DNA of 64,000 nucleotides, taken from a virus. The stretch's first letter is position 1. Every line of letters begins with the position of its first letter. Below are positions 9,017 to 23,335 of this stretch, piece by piece. The stretch spans positions 64,001-128,000 of the IMG/VR virus record IMGVR_UViG_3300046003_007336; one strand, 5' to 3'. The position numbers and the translations under genes are program-made. The notes below the pieces were generated by a model that did not search any database, was not told the DNA's origin, and worked only from the letters and a program-made list of their open reading frames with translations.

Positions 9017-9591
9017 TGGAAGTCCTCTTCAATACATTGCGGGCAGTGGGCGCCGTCTTGCTCTTCGTCGGCATCCTCTATGGAGGCGGCAAGCTTATCC
9101 AGAAAGCCACCATGGCCCCGATGGGCTGGTTGTTGCGCGGGTGCATGAAAGATTTCTGGTTCCATCTTCAGTCCGCCATGCCGGGAAACTACGAGGTCAA
9201 CAAGATCATCTATAGCAGGGCCCCGACTTTTCTCAGTCGGTTCTCTCCGTATCGGCATTTCCTTATCCTAACCCCCATCGTCGGATGTTTGGCACTAGAT
9301 GCCATCACGCGAGATATGCGACGTGAGAGCAAATGGATTGCGCGCGGCCTCGGCGTATGGGGGCTGGACAGCTTTCGAAAGCATTTCTATCAGAACGATA
9401 TCGAAATCATCGAATGGTTGAGCGACAACTGCGAAGGCAAGTTCGAGTTCATCTTTACTGAGATGGGCCGCCGCATACCGAGTCGTTTCTCTGTGTCCCA
9501 GCGGGACGTGATGATTTCGTTCTCGTCCCCGGCCGATTTCCTCAAGGTCAGATTGGTGTTCGACGCCAAGCTGCCATCGGAACATAATTGA
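9016..9591 (+). CDS. hypothetical protein with N-terminal hydrophobic helix, dispersed motif family
   Basis: TGATG coupling; ends ISFSSPADFLKVRLVFD. Confidence 0.7.
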   Translation: MEVLFNTLRAVGAVLLFVGILYGGGKLIQKATMAPMGWLLRGCMKDFWFHLQSAMPGNYEVNKIIYSRAPTFLSRFSPYRHFLILTPIVGCLALDAITRDMRRESKWIARGLGVWGLDSFRKHFYQNDIEIIEWLSDNCEGKFEFIFTEMGRRIPSRFSVSQRDVMISFSSPADFLKVRLVFDAKLPSEHN

Positions 9592-10064
9592 TGATCTGGC
9601 TCTGTCAGCGGTTTAGGCACCAGACTGGCTGGGAGGGTGCCGACGAATGGGAGTCGCCGAGAAGACGCGCCACAAGACTTAACTGCAAGACCTTTGTGTT
9701 CGAGTTTTCTACCGGAGTCGCGCACCTGTTCCGCCGCTATCGCCAGCCTCTGCGTTTCCCCCTGTCAGGCTTTCCGTTCAGCCCGGCAGACTGGCAGGCC
9801 ACGATCTCTCTGCGGACCCATCTGAAACGCTCGGTCGATACGACCGACGACCATTTGCCCATCTTCCCCATTGGTGAAAACGACGCCCTCGACTGGCTGA
9901 TCAAGAACCTCAAAGGGAAGGTGAAGTTCACCGCTGTCCTCGACCGAAATGACGTAGCTGGTCTCGTCAACGATGCCGCGTATGCCGTCCTGGCATTCAC
10001 CGACACCCGCGATGAAGCCGCCTTCCAACTTTTTTTCGATGGCGGCGAAGTTTTTATTGACTAA
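9588..10064 (+). CDS. hypothetical protein of dispersed motif family
   Basis: Ends LAFTDTRDEAAFQLFFD. Confidence 0.7.
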   Translation: MMIWLCQRFRHQTGWEGADEWESPRRRATRLNCKTFVFEFSTGVAHLFRRYRQPLRFPLSGFPFSPADWQATISLRTHLKRSVDTTDDHLPIFPIGENDALDWLIKNLKGKVKFTAVLDRNDVAGLVNDAAYAVLAFTDTRDEAAFQLFFDGGEVFID

Positions 10065-10092
10065 AGGTCACCCGTGATACTAAATAGGGGCT

Positions 10093-10169
10093 CGCGGGGT
10101 AGAGCAGTCCAGTAGCTCGTTTGGCTCATAACCAAAAGGTCGGCGGTGCGAATCCGTCTCCCGCACCCA
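10093..10169 (+). tRNA. tRNA-Met(CAT), initiator-like
   Basis: C1:A72 mismatch, CT-CAT-AA loop, CCA; only two G-C pairs at the base of the anticodon stem; TAAATA at 10081. Confidence 0.88.
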
Positions 10170-10176
10170 TTTCGAA

Positions 10177-10204
10177 AAGCCCTCGGTCTCACCGGGGGCT
10201 TTTT
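10177..10204 (+). terminator. intrinsic terminator after tRNA-Met
   Basis: AAGCCCTCGGT-CTC-ACCGGGGGCTT plus T run. Confidence 0.8.
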
Positions 10205-10255
10205 CAATTCTATTTTTTGGTTGACATAAAATCCGACTTCGGCGATAACGGCGTC

Positions 10256-10920
10256 GAGGTTAACTCGCAACGATAGAGCAACGGCCCGGAGGGACCGGGA
10301 CAGGCAGCGGTGTCTGTTCTAGGCTGACGGCGGCACTCTAGAGGGGCTTGCAGACGGGGATAGGGCCCACCAGCCCGATTCCCCGTCGCCTCAATGTGGT
10401 CAGATGGGTCTCCGTCTGGCATCACCATCCTAACCTTCATGGACGTTGGTGCGTTCGCCGGAGGGACAAGTATGTGAACGCGGCCCTCAAAAGCCGAAAT
10501 GTTGCTGGGTCAGGCGCAGTGCGCGCTGAGACCAAATACTGGAGTTGGGCGGTGGTCCTTCTGACCACATTAGGTCTTTGACATTCGTCGCCTGTCTTTG
10601 ATAGGGCGTAGGTCGATGGTCGGGCCCGTGGTCGCCCGCACTCAAGCGAGTGGTGGGGTTCGATTCCCCGAGGCCCGGTGTAGTTCTCGAATGGATAAGC
10701 GGTTCGTCCCTCATCCGAGATCGTTTGCGCCTACAGGCGACGTCTACTAAAACTAAGGGGCTAGTCCTGGCCCGCTGAGAAGTGTCGCCCGACCAGCCAA
10801 GAGTGCTCCGGGATAGTCGCTCAGCATAAGCCTACAGGACACACCGTGGGGCGCGACACCCCGCGATGAACACGCGTTGCTATTGCGCGTCCGGGAAACA
10901 ACTGTTGGTCCGGTTAACTG
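10256..10920 (+). ncRNA. large ornate ncRNA candidate (about 665 nt), possibly ROOL-class
   Basis: TTGACA-N17-GATAAC promoter; nested long-range helices 10277-83/10875-81, 10308-13/10841-46, 10320-25/10829-34, 10333-39/10800-06, 10393-404/10560-71, 10587-95/10733-41. Confidence 0.78.
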
Positions 10921-10977
10921 GCAAACACTTAGATTAGTCGGGATTTTTTTCCGACTTATACCCTCCCTCTATACCTG

Positions 10978-11392
10978 TCGGCCCCGATGTGCTGTTTAGA
11001 GCAAAGCATATCCCCGACTGACTGCACCAGATGCGGCTGAAATGCCAAATCGTCTACCCAGTATACAGGCGTATGCTGGGGGTCTTGAGCGCAAGGTCTG
11101 AACGCTTCGGCGTTCCGGTGGGGGAAGGGGGCTCTGTTGGTGGCGCAGATGCGCCTAGGCTGTGGGTCCACGTCAACTGAACGGCCCCATTAGATTTCGG
11201 TGCCAGGGGTGGAAGGCCTTCCTGAACCTGTGGCTGGAGTCTCGAAATGCAGTCGAGGCGGGTAGAAAGCGAAACCGGACTGGGACTGACCCTAGCACCG
11301 GGCCGCGTTGACAAGCACCGCCCCGCAAGCGCGGGTAAGTCGTGTGCGCTTCCTACAGACGAAGGGGCGGGGGAAACCCTGCCCCTTTTTTT
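10978..11392 (+). ncRNA. structured ncRNA candidate (about 400 nt), or 3' extension of the preceding RNA
   Basis: Non-coding, multiple hairpins and long-range complements, ends in a strong terminator. Confidence 0.55.
11362..11392 (+). terminator. intrinsic terminator
   Basis: AAGGGGCGGGG-GAAA-CCCTGCCCCTT plus T run. Confidence 0.85.
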
Positions 11393-11441
11393 CTTGACAA
11401 GATTTCCGTCCGTGGTAGCAGTACGGAAACAGGAGAGTCTT

Positions 11442-12107
11442 ATGAACCGTCGTACTTTCTTCGCCAGCATTCTCGGCGCCTCAGTTGCGGGCACGCTCGG
11501 CAGTCTCGCAGTTCCCGCATGGGCGCGCGCCGACGAGAGCCTGAACATCTATGTTCGCCTGATCGACCTCCAGAAGGCGATGCTGGCCAACCACGAAACC
11601 TGGAAGAGCGGCCCGGCGTTCGCCCACGTGCCCGAACTCGACGACCCCTTGGATACGCGCCCCGATGTCGAAAAGCGTCGCCGCCACCTCGTCGAACAGC
11701 GAATCGCTGACCGCCACGCGGCCCGCAAGAACTACGATCTGACCCCGGCTGACGCCGTCCTCGCGCACCTGAACGCCCATTTCGCCCCCGACGCCAGCGA
11801 CGTCAGCGAGGCCCTCGTGCGCCAAGCCCGCGCCGAGGCCAACGCGGTTGGCGGCGTGAAAATGTCCAGAACGGATTTCCGTCGCGAGGTCGCCATTGAG
11901 CAGGCTCGGCGAGAAGTCCGGGCCGTGTTCAACCGAGAAATCGAGATCGACACCATGTCGGAGGCCAGCATGCGCCGCGTGCTGAAATCGACGGTCGCCG
12001 TCGCGGTCGTCAAGGGCATGCTGTCGGTGCACAAGATGCCCCTCGACCCCAAGAAGATGGGCGCCTTCAACGAGTTCGCGACGAAGTTCAGGCACATCAT
12101 CCTTTAA
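11442..12107 (+). CDS. predicted Tat-exported protein
   Basis: MNRRTFF twin-arginine motif, hydrophobic core, AWA-RA cleavage-like site; TTGACA at 11394; AGGAG SD. Confidence 0.75.
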   Translation: MNRRTFFASILGASVAGTLGSLAVPAWARADESLNIYVRLIDLQKAMLANHETWKSGPAFAHVPELDDPLDTRPDVEKRRRHLVEQRIADRHAARKNYDLTPADAVLAHLNAHFAPDASDVSEALVRQARAEANAVGGVKMSRTDFRREVAIEQARREVRAVFNREIEIDTMSEASMRRVLKSTVAVAVVKGMLSVHKMPLDPKKMGAFNEFATKFRHIIL

Positions 12108-12144
12108 CTTGACAGTTTCCGGCCAAGGTGATTAAATAACTGCG

Positions 12145-12540
12145 TGTTGGTGACCAAATCAACCGCTTAGGCAGGACCGGGGTGCGAATCCCCGCGCCTC
12201 CACCAAAAACACATAGCCCGCTGAGATACGCGGGGAGCCGACTGTCATGTAAGCCGGGTTGGGGTTTCTAGAGCCCTGGCTATCAACGGTAGATCGGGGA
12301 CAGTCACAAGGCGGCTAGAGTTCCTTAGCGGGGGCAACAGTCTAGGCTCGCTACGACCGATATGGTCTGTGTGTTTTTGATGGGGGCGAATAGCTATCGA
12401 CTGATAGGCGTAGAGGCGAGAGACACCGGTAAGAAACGACCGAAAATCAGTTCAAATTTCTACCTGCCAACGACAACGTTGACATGGGTTCCTACGCCCT
12501 CGCGGCGTAAGGAACTCGGGGCCCACTGGGGGCCTAGCAA
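12145..12540 (+). ncRNA. ssrA: two-piece circularly permuted tmRNA; tag (A)ANDNVDMGSYALAA
   Basis: T arm and CGCCTCCACCA end at 12205; GGGGGCG 5' strand at 12382 giving G3:U70; tag frame 12466-12510; TAAATA at 12133. Confidence 0.93.
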
Positions 12541-22492: not shown

Positions 22493-23300
22493 TGTCGCTT
22501 GGGACTGACAGCCGCCCGCAAGGGTGGTCAAAGGTCGGGGTTGTCGCCCCGGTCGCCATCGCAAGGTGGTCAAGCCAAGCAAGCGTCACATCTCACTGAG
22601 AAATCGGTGTCTGGCATTTCGGTGCTGGGTATCGTTATTCCGGTGTCCTGTTGAGCCTGTCCAACCAGAGATGGCGGATAGGCGAACACAGGCGGGGGAC
22701 CGTCTGTGGAGGGCAATCCGACCGGGAGAAGCGAGAAGGTGAAGGCGTGGGACGGTCAGTCCGAGGAGCAGGATAGGCTTCTAGGGCGACGTCCAGTTGA
22801 CGGGTGAAGTCTTGCCGCCAGTACCCTTTCGAGGGTCTGGAGCCACGGAAGGCGGAGTCCGGTAGACGGTTCCCTGAGTCCGGGGAGCATGAGGGCGTGT
22901 GGTATTTTGTGGGCCAAAAGCTCACGGAGCCACGGTAAGCACGACCTCTGACAAAAACCCGCTGGGTTCCGACCCAGCACCATCATGCAAGGTGTTAAAA
23001 CCAAGAGAAAGCCTTACCGGTTTCGTGTGAAAGATGGTTCCTATCCTGGGACGCAAGTCGCCAGGATGCCCGGAGGTCTCAAGCCGAAGGGTCCAGTCTC
23101 GGGAAAGTATTCTGCAAGGGTTCGCAAGCCTTTGTAGACGACGGACGGGACAGTAGCACGAGATGACAGTCTACCGCCTGACTTAAAACGGCACCATCGA
23201 TTGGCGAGGGCGTGGTGACATGTCTGGAGCCGGGAGGGAACCAATACTCCTCCTACGGCCGATCACGGAACCCGTGGCTCTCAGGGTTTCAAAACCTCAA
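22493..23300 (+). ncRNA. about 800-nt large ncRNA, GOLLD-like
   Basis: TTGACC-N17-TATAGT promoter, no credible ORF, many GNRA/UUCG hairpins, long-range helices (22694-705/22864-75; 22769-77/23040-48; 22927-35 or 22840-48/23272-80), terminator; size and 3' motifs fit GOLLD as recalled. Confidence 0.65.
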
Positions 23301-23335
23301 AGGGGTGTTTGGTGAAAACCAGACGCCCCTTTGTT
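23299..23335 (+). terminator. terminator after GOLLD-like RNA
   Basis: AAAGGGGTGTTTGGT-GAAA-ACCAGACGCCCCTTTGTT. Confidence 0.75.

What the first reader, a model, noticed from the sequence alone, without database searches (positions are those of the whole stretch)
10221..10920. About 665-nt ornate RNA next to tRNA-Met (ROOL-like or new cage-forming RNA)
Seen: a dedicated promoter right after the tRNA-Met terminator, no credible ORF, and at least six long-range helices nesting the 5' and 3' ends, plus potential crossing pairs (GCTGA/TCAGC, TCGGGC/GCCCGA). The self-complementary octamer GGTTAACT occurs at both ends (10258-65 and 10912-19) and could pair within or between molecules. Known: ROOL and GOLLD are tRNA-adjacent phage RNAs that form RNA-only multimeric cages. 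Inference: this is ROOL-class or a new member of that functional group, in a probable alphaproteobacterial phage.
Basis: partly seen in the sequence, partly recalled or inferred. Interest (0 to 1): 0.8.

Follow-up and report, generated by a model that had tools for sequence, protein, structure and literature searches.

The report
New multi-domain structured RNA in megaphage
The gene-free stretch behind the giant phage's initiator-type tRNA-Met encodes a real, uncatalogued folded RNA: its ~220-base centre is kept by compensatory mutations in a second giant phage, but it is not ROOL or GOLLD, and the phage carries a true GOLLD RNA 12 kb away.

Summary
The observation largely holds. Window 10205-11395 is ORF-free. 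It begins with a TTGACA-N17-GATAAC promoter just after the tRNA-Met terminator. The only strong terminator is at 11361-11395, so the unit is probably ~1.1 kb, not 665 nt.

No Rfam family matches it, even at E<=10. The same library finds a divergent GOLLD at 22890-23287 in this window, which serves as an internal positive control. ROOL, GOLLD and OLE membership is therefore not met.

One homologue exists, in a related 415-kb phage (G002). It aligns only to 10370-10577. All 53 predicted pairs are kept, 15 through changes on both sides, against 0-1 in slid controls. The core sits behind a tRNA-like minihelix in both phages, inside long tRNA-flanked ORF-free islands whose other parts differ.

A strain variant has six differences, all non-coding. 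Four of them form two compensatory pairs in hairpin 11100-11115.

The long-range 5'/3' nest is only a thermodynamic prediction (about p 0.05). The GGTTAACT repeat is within chance. Cage formation is untested.

This scan has noted similar orphan megaphage RNAs on other DNA, but not this family.

The parts
10174..10204 (+). Intrinsic terminator of the upstream tRNA-Met (10093-10169). It marks the 5' boundary of the unit.
   Evidence: Terminator scan: 14 pairs plus a T-run. tRNA called by ARAGORN and Rfam.
10221..10249 (+). Promoter-like site: TTGACA, 17 nt, GATAAC. The inferred start is near 10256.
   Evidence: Read from the sequence. TTGACA is enriched in ORF-free DNA, 16 of 60 copies in 7% of the genome. 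Not flagged by the strict scan. The start site is inferred, not shown.
10267..10348 (+). 5' strands of six nested long-range helices. They pair with 10769-10880 and close 'domain I'.
   Evidence: MFE and partition function, pair probabilities 0.7-0.99. At the top of 20 shuffles but not beyond them. No comparative support.
10353..10387 (+). Minihelix-like hairpin (P0) just 5' of the core: GACGGGGA/UCCCCGUC enclosing a degenerate T-arm-like hairpin.
   Evidence: Pair probability 0.99. It aligns with the T arm and 3' acceptor strand of a tRNA-like element in G002. G002 has GCGGGGA/UCCCCGC, one compensatory pair.
10393..10571 (+). Conserved core domain. A closing stem of ~22-26 bp leads to a three-way junction, and one branch forks again.
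   Evidence: nhmmer hit in G002, E 2.8e-8. All 53 pairs are kept; 15 have changes on both sides, against 0-1 in slid controls and 0 of 500 shuffles. CM R1 scores 212 bits in both phages.
10501..10533 (+). Most conserved block of the core: a hairpin with a 1x2 internal loop and a 5-nt loop (AGUGC in ours, AAUGC in G002).
   Evidence: 26 of 30 bases are identical to G002, and two pairs covary.
10586..10742 (+). Domain closed by helices of 10, 9 and 4 bp. It contains the tRNA-like module.
   Evidence: Pair probabilities 0.88-0.99. Prediction only. The strain variant 10723 G>A breaks its innermost C-G pair.
10620..10678 (+). tRNA-like minihelix: a 7-bp acceptor-like stem, a canonical T arm (UGGGG-UUCGAUU-CCCCG) and a 5-bp mini-hairpin. 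It has no D arm, no anticodon loop and no encoded CCA.
   Evidence: cmscan mascRNA-menRNA 26.2 bits, E 0.016 in 2.2 kb, and E 3.5e-4 over the genome. ARAGORN calls no tRNA.
10828..11351 (+). Second predicted closed domain ('domain II'). It probably lies on the same transcript.
   Evidence: MFE of 10256-11392: eight nested helices join 10828-10969 to 11255-11351. No terminator separates it from domain I.
11100..11115 (+). UUCG-capped hairpin GAACGC/GCGUUC with two compensatory pairs in a strain variant.
   Evidence: L022 carries 11101 A>G with 11114 T>C, and 11103 C>T with 11112 G>A. Pair probability 0.97.
11361..11395 (+). Strong intrinsic terminator (12-bp GC-rich stem, GAAA loop, U7). This is the likely 3' end of the unit.
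   Evidence: Terminator scan. Pair probability 0.99. It is followed at 11394 by the next TTGACA and the Tat-signal ORF at 11442-12107.

Best explanation
Window 10221-11395 is a self-standing non-coding RNA gene, or a small RNA operon, of a giant phage. The record is 198.5 kb and estimated 44% complete. The locus lies in the phage's translation-RNA neighbourhood: initiator-type tRNA-Met, tmRNA and peptide deformylase.

A host-type promoter probably makes a primary transcript of ~1.1 kb that folds into several independently closed domains. The centre, a minihelix-like hairpin at 10353-10387 plus a ~180-nt junction domain at 10393-10571, belongs to a new RNA family shared with one other giant phage and kept by selection on base pairing.

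The flanks are lineage-specific modules, including a tRNA-like acceptor/T-arm minihelix at 10620-10678.

My working mechanism is inferred, not shown. The tRNA-like minihelices act as RNase P/RNase Z handles, and the ~25-bp closing stems act as RNase III-type processing sites. Together they would cut the long precursor into a few stable structured RNAs, which then act in trans on the translation or tRNA machinery during infection.

It is not ROOL, GOLLD or OLE.
For: **Shown**
- The region is ORF-free and shows no sign of coding.
- It has its own promoter-like site and a single strong terminator.
- The + strand folds better than the - strand: -298.6 against -269.2 kcal/mol, z -2.6 against -1.8.
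- The homologue in G002 has 100% of 53 pairs kept and 15 double changes, against 0-1 in slid controls.
- Two compensatory pairs occur in hairpin 11100-11115. All six strain differences fall in the non-coding 1.1 kb of a 2.1-kb contig.
- The module at 10620-10678 has a canonical T arm and an acceptor stem.
- In G002 the core again follows a tRNA-like 3' end, inside a ~1.9-kb ORF-free stretch downstream of tRNA-Lys and tRNA-Trp. That stretch holds a second tRNA-like element without an anticodon arm, scoring 37 bits on the tRNA model.
- Another G002 module is shared with G001 instead of with this phage, E 4.6e-19. The islands are therefore mosaics of separable modules.

**Inferred**
- Processing at the minihelices and long stems.
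- Action in trans on translation.
Against:
- The family has only two members, so covariation rests on one pair of sequences and on a structure derived from them.
- The core is absent from two near-complete relatives, G001 (97% complete) and G004 (100% complete). It is therefore dispensable.
- The outer helices and domain II are single-sequence predictions, only marginally better than shuffles.
- One strain variant (10723 G>A) breaks a predicted pair.
- The tRNA-like module is not part of the MFE fold, which uses part of its T stem differently.
- No processing enzyme site has been demonstrated.
Confidence: 0.6

Rival explanations
1. Only the conserved centre (10353-10571) is a functional RNA. 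The rest of the island would be decaying tRNA genes and spacer DNA, and its predicted helices would have no biological meaning.
For: - Sequence homology with G002 stops at 10370-10577, even with filters off.
- The tRNA-like pieces lack D and anticodon arms, as pseudogenes might.
- The long-range nest is within reach of shuffled sequences.
- Short repeated 8-10-mers link the T-arm-like pieces, for example CGATTCCCCG at 10376 and 10661.
Against: - Two compensatory pairs in hairpin 11100-11115 show structural selection outside the centre.
- The T arm at 10654-10670 is perfectly canonical rather than decayed.
- Stable tetraloop hairpins are dense throughout, and a dedicated strong terminator follows only at 11361.
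Confidence: 0.2
2. One reading: one integrated ornate RNA of about 665 nt that self-assembles into an RNA-only multimer or cage, as ROOL and GOLLD do.
For: - The setting matches. It is a large, highly structured phage RNA just downstream of tRNA-Met, as GOLLD env-38 is, with a tRNA-like insert (GOLLD linkers sometimes hold tRNAs; PMC12286853).
- The predicted 5'/3' nest closes a ~550-nt body.
Against: - No ROOL, GOLLD or OLE match appears, while a GOLLD is detected elsewhere in the same window.
- The phage already has its GOLLD.
- The flanks are not conserved with the core.
- No palindromic kissing-type loop is conserved.
- The GGTTAACT repeat is within chance, and in the full-length fold its second copy pairs elsewhere.
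Confidence: 0.07
3. The core is a mobile or self-processing RNA module, such as an intron-like element or a ribozyme, that inserted next to tRNA-like sequences. That would explain its patchy occurrence and differing flanks.
For: - It is present in 2 of 4 large related genomes, in non-syntenic places, each time directly 3' of a tRNA-like acceptor strand.
- Short direct repeats lie on both sides of the core: CGTCGCCT at 10384 and 10586, and GATAGGGC at 10359 and 10600.
Against: - No group I or II intron, ribozyme or other mobile-RNA family matches at E<=10.
- No transposase, homing endonuclease or reverse transcriptase lies nearby.
- Pairwise alignment of the two flanks is unconvincing.
Confidence: 0.08
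4. It is a cis-acting leader or riboswitch that controls the downstream Tat-signal protein gene (11442-12107).
For: It lies upstream on the same strand.
Against: - A strong terminator and a new TTGACA box separate it from the ORF.
- The core lies ~870 nt before the start codon.
- In G002 the neighbouring genes are unrelated.
- No riboswitch family matches.
Confidence: 0.05

Closest known systems
GOLLD RNA (Rfam RF02032; cryo-EM 14-mer cage, PMC12286853)
   Same: - It is a large structured phage RNA near tRNA genes. GOLLD env-38 also lies downstream of a tRNA-Met.
- It is modular, with a conserved part and variable parts.
- GOLLD sometimes carries tRNA sequences inside its linker.
   Different: - The finding gives no match to the GOLLD model, whereas window 22890-23287 scores 116.6 bits, E 5e-30.
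- The conserved part here is a central ~220 nt, not a 3' half of ~400 nt.
- Oligomerisation is untested.
ROOL RNA (Rfam RF03087; octameric cage)
   Same: - The size class is similar (~600 nt).
- The setting is similar: phage or prophage, next to tRNAs.
- No protein partner is known.
   Different: - No model match.
[quoted passage not shown] Here the flanks are exchanged between phages.
Phage T4 stable RNAs C and D (species 1 and 2) of the tRNA gene cluster (from my own knowledge)
   Same: They are phage-encoded stable structured RNAs of unknown function, sitting among tRNA genes and released by tRNA-type processing. This is the closest analogue for the proposed mechanism.
   Different: - The T4 RNAs are ~120-140 nt and are co-transcribed with true tRNAs.
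- This unit has its own promoter and terminator, is about ten times longer, and uses tRNA-like mimics rather than tRNAs.
- No sequence relation was tested; no model was available.
mascRNA/MALAT1-type tRNA-like processing modules and bacterial YrlA (Y RNA-like) tRNA mimics
   Same: The module is an acceptor/T-arm mimic without a decoding arm, embedded in a longer RNA. The best Rfam resemblance of 10620-10678 is to mascRNA (26 bits).
   Different: - The score is below the gathering threshold (42.5).
- mascRNA belongs to eukaryotic RNAs.
- There is no YrlA match, and no Ro/TROVE gene in G000 or G002.

Membership tests
ROOL (RF03087) | Match to the family covariance model | tested here: not met
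   There is no hit at E<=10 in 10000-12200, none in the whole window at E<=0.05, and none in G000-G002. That last search had no positive control anywhere.
ROOL (RF03087) | Homo-octameric RNA-only cage | not testable with these tools
   This needs SEC-MALS or cryo-EM.
GOLLD (RF02032) | Match to the conserved 3' domain model | tested here: not met
   There is no hit on 10000-12200 at E<=10. The same model finds window 22890-23287 at 116.6 bits and G001 at 98 bits, so the search was sensitive enough in this very phage.
GOLLD (RF02032) | Phage or prophage location beside tRNA genes | tested here: met
   The locus lies directly downstream of tRNA-Met in a giant phage record. This shows context only, not membership.
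OLE (RF01071) and all other Rfam 15 families | Match to any covariance model | tested here: not met
   In one search the only hits between 10205 and 11395 are sub-threshold: mascRNA (26 bits), tRNA-Sec (21 bits), and chance-level sRNA hits.
tRNA (RF00005), for the module 10620-10678 | Cloverleaf with D arm, anticodon arm, T arm and acceptor stem | tested here: not met
   ARAGORN gives no call and the tRNA model gives no hit. Only the acceptor stem and T arm are present.
YrlA / Y RNA-like tRNA mimics | Family model match and a Ro (TROVE) partner gene | tested here: not met
   There is no Rfam hit. PF05731 is absent from G000 and G002, with positive controls ringing. A host-encoded Ro cannot be excluded.
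New family defined here (model R1, core 10388-10576) | Conserved secondary structure kept by compensatory changes in independent genomes | tested here: met
   There are two members, this phage and G002 at 157430-157620 (-). All 53 pairs are kept, with 15 double changes against 0-1 in slid controls. Two sequences are too few for R-scape-type statistics.

The most novel reading that the evidence does not exclude
Giant phages carry 'RNA islands': long transcripts in which tRNA-like minihelices punctuate several unrelated, exchangeable structured RNA modules. This would be a bacterial-virus counterpart of mitochondrial tRNA punctuation. The conserved core would then be a new functional RNA, such as a ribozyme or a scaffold that binds the translation or tRNA machinery, or even a second self-assembling RNA working beside the phage's GOLLD.
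Probability: 0.25. Interest if true: 0.8.

Novelty: new variant of a known kind. Interest (0 to 1): 0.6.

Why it matters
GOLLD and ROOL showed that phage RNAs next to tRNA islands can be large, protein-free machines, and their purpose is still unknown. This phage has a GOLLD and also a second, unrelated large structured RNA locus. That locus has a covariation-supported core, tRNA-mimicking modules, and module exchange between phages.

If the processing model holds, there would be a tractable ~220-nt conserved RNA to probe, solve and knock out. It would also suggest that giant phages carry whole sets of structured RNAs alongside their own tRNAs, tmRNA and synthetases. This bears on how these phages take over translation.

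The finding also illustrates a practical point. Divergent GOLLDs fall below Rfam's gathering score (116.6 against 150 bits here) and are missed by default annotation.

Tried and rejected
**Searches for homologues that found nothing**
- blastn of the island against 50,697 phage records: no match.
- No paralogue in the phage's own 198.5 kb.
- The neighbouring ORFs at 9591-10061 and 11442-12104 have no relatives in IMG/VR or among 5.8 billion proteins, so synteny could not be used.
- The other contigs that carry these ORFs are 100% identical, except L022.
- The tmRNA neighbourhood in G002 is not syntenic.

**Pattern scans for the conserved block**
- IMG/VR returned only G002.
- One scan used a miscounted spacer and was wasted.
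None of those fits model R1, but real members may be among the unseen rows.
- The two GTDB genome hits are chance.

**Model R1 searches**
- Nothing in G001 (561 kb), in G004 (608 kb), or in ten smaller relatives.

**Other checks**
- Module B, shared by G001 and G002 (model R2), is absent from the window.
- A mascRNA-model sweep for further minihelices in G001 and G002 found mostly true tRNAs.
- The 'TCCGACT' promoter-motif idea showed no positional pattern.
- A duplication of the core's flanks gave an unconvincing alignment.
- I first used the wrong accession for GOLLD (RF01998 is a group II intron piece). This was corrected.

Full report
**Context**

The window is bases 64001-128000 of a 198.5-kb IMG/VR virus record that CheckV rates 44% complete. 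Relatives with 58-67% identical family-B DNA polymerase include records of 415, 561 and 608 kb, so this is a giant phage.

The window carries 11 tRNA genes, a permuted alpha-type tmRNA, a class I aminoacyl-tRNA synthetase and a peptide deformylase.

**Anatomy**

The layout, 5' to 3':
- An ORF ends at 10064.
- tRNA-Met at 10093-10169.
- Its terminator at 10174-10204.
- TTGACA at 10221, then 17 nt, then GATAAC at 10244-10249.
- About 1.14 kb without a credible ORF.
- A strong terminator at 11361-11388 followed by U7.
- Another TTGACA at 11394.
- A Shine-Dalgarno sequence and a 221-codon ORF with a twin-arginine signal, 11442-12107.
- TTGACA at 12109.
- The tmRNA.

TTGACA is enriched about 3.8-fold in ORF-free DNA of this genome. 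That fits host-type promoters, although the strict scan did not call this site.

The hairpin at 10936-10956 has its U-run in the loop and no U-tail.

Recoding TAG or TGA opens no believable frame. None of the short ORFs hits Pfam or PHROGs.

**Known families**

cmscan of 10000-12200 against all 4227 Rfam 15 families at E<=10 gives nothing for ROOL, GOLLD, OLE, introns, ribozymes or riboswitches. The only notable hit is a sub-threshold tRNA-like match at 10620-10678: mascRNA model, 26.2 bits, against a gathering score of 42.5.

The GOLLD model does find a divergent GOLLD at window 22890-23287 (116.6 bits, E 5e-30). It also finds one in relative G001. The score is below the gathering threshold of 150, so the default search missed it. 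This is an internal positive control: the finding is not a GOLLD, and the phage already has one.

**Homologues**

DNA searches of phage records and of the phage's own genome found nothing. The neighbouring ORFs are orphans.

I fetched the complete relatives G001 and G002 and ran nhmmer. It found one homologue, G002 157636-157436 (- strand), E 2.8e-8. It aligns only to window 10370-10577 at 63% identity.

RNAalifold on the pair predicts:
- a closing stem of 22-26 bp (10393-10420 with 10544-10571);
- a three-way junction;
- a second fork bearing the most conserved hairpin (10507-10533).

On the trimmed alignment all 53 pairs are standard in both sequences. Fifteen pairs changed on both sides. 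Sliding the partner by 1-3 columns gives 0-1 such pairs and 35-45% pairing, and 0 of 500 column shuffles reach the observed values.

Mismatches show no codon periodicity (28, 21 and 19 in the three phases). Internal indels are 1, 6, 1 and 3 nt. This is strong evidence for a structured RNA. The caveats are that there are only two sequences and that the structure was derived from them.

Just 5' of the core, both phages have a hairpin built like the acceptor/T-arm half of a tRNA:
- Ours is GACGGGGA ... UCCCCGUC around a degenerate T-arm.
- G002 has GCGGGGA ... UCCCCGC with a canonical CUAGG-UUCGAGC-CCUAG T arm.

**Distribution**

Covariance model R1 scores 212 bits on both members. It finds nothing in any of the following:
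- G001 (97% complete) and G004 (100% complete);
- ten smaller relatives;
- the IMG/VR, metagenome or GTDB stretches fetched with conserved-block patterns.

The metagenome scan was truncated. The family is therefore rare and accessory as far as I could see.

**Mosaic islands**

In G002 the core lies ~1.1 kb into a ~1.9-kb ORF-free stretch downstream of tRNA-Lys and tRNA-Trp. That stretch has its own TTGACC-N17-TAGATT site. It also contains a tRNA-like element with acceptor, D and T arms but no anticodon arm, scoring 37 bits on the tRNA model.

A different 180-nt piece of that stretch is homologous to a ~2-kb ORF-poor stretch of G001 (E 4.6e-19) and shows some covariation. Its model R2 finds nothing in our window.

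So these phages have long non-coding islands beside tRNA genes, made of structured modules shared in different combinations.

**The rest of our RNA**

Thermodynamic folding of 10256-10955 and of 10256-11392 gives the same 'domain I'. Six nested helices join 10267-10348 to 10769-10880 around four parts:
- the minihelix hairpin;
- the core;
- a domain at 10586-10742 that holds the tRNA-like module;
- a small hairpin.

In the long fold a 'domain II' follows at 10828-11351, closed by eight nested helices.

| Measure | Native | 20 dinucleotide shuffles |
|---|---|---|
| Long-range pairs with P >= 0.7 | 36 | 13 +/- 11 (max 35) |
| MFE (kcal/mol) | -294.4 | -275.3 +/- 6.9 |

This is suggestive, at about p 0.05, but not decisive. 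The + strand folds 29 kcal/mol better than the - strand.

Independent support for structure outside the core comes from microdiversity. Contig L022 (JGI 3300042889) covers 10303-12381 and differs at six positions. All six lie in the non-coding part. Four of them form two compensatory pairs (A-U to G-C, and C-G to U-A) in the UUCG hairpin 11100-11115. One (10723 G>A) breaks a predicted pair. The other contigs are identical.

- GGTTAACT is at both stated places, but 97% of shuffles contain a repeated octamer. In the full-length fold the second copy pairs elsewhere.
- The sequence does have more repeated 8-mers than shuffles: 14 against 4.8, p 0.007. They include CGATTCCCCG, shared by the two T-arm-like pieces. 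I leave this excess unexplained.
- No conserved palindromic loop of the kind that bridges GOLLD, ROOL or OLE protomers was seen in the core.

**Interpretation**

The shown facts are:
- a non-coding, promoter-to-terminator unit;
- a conserved and covarying ~220-nt centre;
- tRNA-mimicking minihelices;
- exchangeable modules.

I infer that the long precursor is cut at the minihelices by RNase P and RNase Z, and at the ~25-bp closing stems by an RNase III-type activity. This would yield stable structured RNAs that act in trans, as phage T4 does for its tRNA-cluster RNAs C and D (from my own knowledge). The target is unknown. The setting, with initiator-type tRNA, tmRNA, deformylase and synthetase, points to translation or tRNA biology.

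Alternatives are set out in the rival explanations:
- only the centre is functional and the rest is decaying tRNA DNA;
- a self-assembling ornate RNA;
- a mobile or self-processing module;
- a cis-regulatory leader.

**Earlier notes of this scan**

These are unchecked leads. They describe the same stretch, its tRNA mimic and the tandem 3' RNA, and they report similar orphan large RNAs in other giant phages. No look-alike of this sequence exists in other scanned genomes.

**Verdict**

This is a real, new structured-RNA locus with modest comparative depth. ROOL and GOLLD membership is rejected, and the cage reading remains unsupported but open. Novelty: a new variant of the known kind 'large tRNA-adjacent phage RNAs'. 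Interest 0.6.

Noticed in passing
window 22600-23308 (model match 22890-23287, + strand): A divergent GOLLD RNA: RF02032 at 116.6 bits, E 5e-30, below the gathering score of 150 and therefore invisible in default Rfam annotation. It fills a 709-nt ORF-free gap. G001 has one too (G001:C1:251967-252447, 98 bits). None was found in G002.
   Followed up: partly
window 10093-10169: The tRNA-Met(CAT) has a C1xA72 mismatch and an A11:U24 pair, which are hallmarks of bacterial initiator tRNA. It has only two of the three G-C pairs usual in the anticodon stem. It carries an encoded CCA and lies ~3 kb from a peptide deformylase gene.
   Followed up: no
L084 5195-5420 (-) in G002 and L082 3130-3380 (-) in G001: A second uncatalogued structured module of ~180 nt is shared by G001 and G002 (E 4.6e-19; 52 predicted pairs, 7 with double changes; model R2). 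It sits inside ~2-kb ORF-poor islands and is absent from this window.
   Followed up: partly
L084 4878-4934 (-) and 4561-4651 (-), G002: Two tRNA-like elements lie inside the G002 island. One has acceptor, D and T arms but no anticodon arm (37.3 bits on the tRNA model). The other has an elongated 'anticodon' arm capped by a palindromic GGCC loop. The D-arm sequence of the first can instead form a 14-bp helix with an upstream segment.
   Followed up: partly
window 10303-12381 compared with L022: All six differences between two natural variants fall in the non-coding 1.1 kb. None falls in the 666-nt Tat-signal ORF or in the part of the tmRNA covered. The non-coding RNA is the fastest-changing part of the locus.
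   Followed up: yes
window 11442-12107: An orphan 221-aa protein with a twin-arginine (Tat) signal, MNRRTFFASIL... It has no relative among 5.8 billion proteins, only weak C-terminal paralogue-like matches in G002.
   Followed up: partly
window 10578-10606: A second TTGACA lies immediately after the conserved core, with a GATAGG box 16 nt downstream that resembles the GATAAC of the first promoter. It may be an internal promoter for the tRNA-like domain. It is not conserved in G002.
   Followed up: no
window 10286/10458, 10376/10661, 10359/10600, 10384/10586: There is an excess of short direct repeats inside the RNA: 14 repeated 8-mers against 4.8 in shuffles, p 0.007. They include 10-mers CCGGAGGGAC and CGATTCCCCG. 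They could reflect alternative pairings or ancient duplication of tRNA-like pieces.
   Followed up: partly
L031 1565-1652 (G002:C1:~373385-373472): G002 encodes a tRNA with anticodon CTA, an amber suppressor that ARAGORN calls tRNA-Pyl. This hints at TAG recoding in that relative. No such tRNA is present in the 198.5 kb held for this phage.
   Followed up: no
window 12206-12381: The permuted tmRNA carries an unusually long insert of ~176 nt between its acceptor and coding pieces. Rfam's model skips it as an insertion.
   Followed up: no
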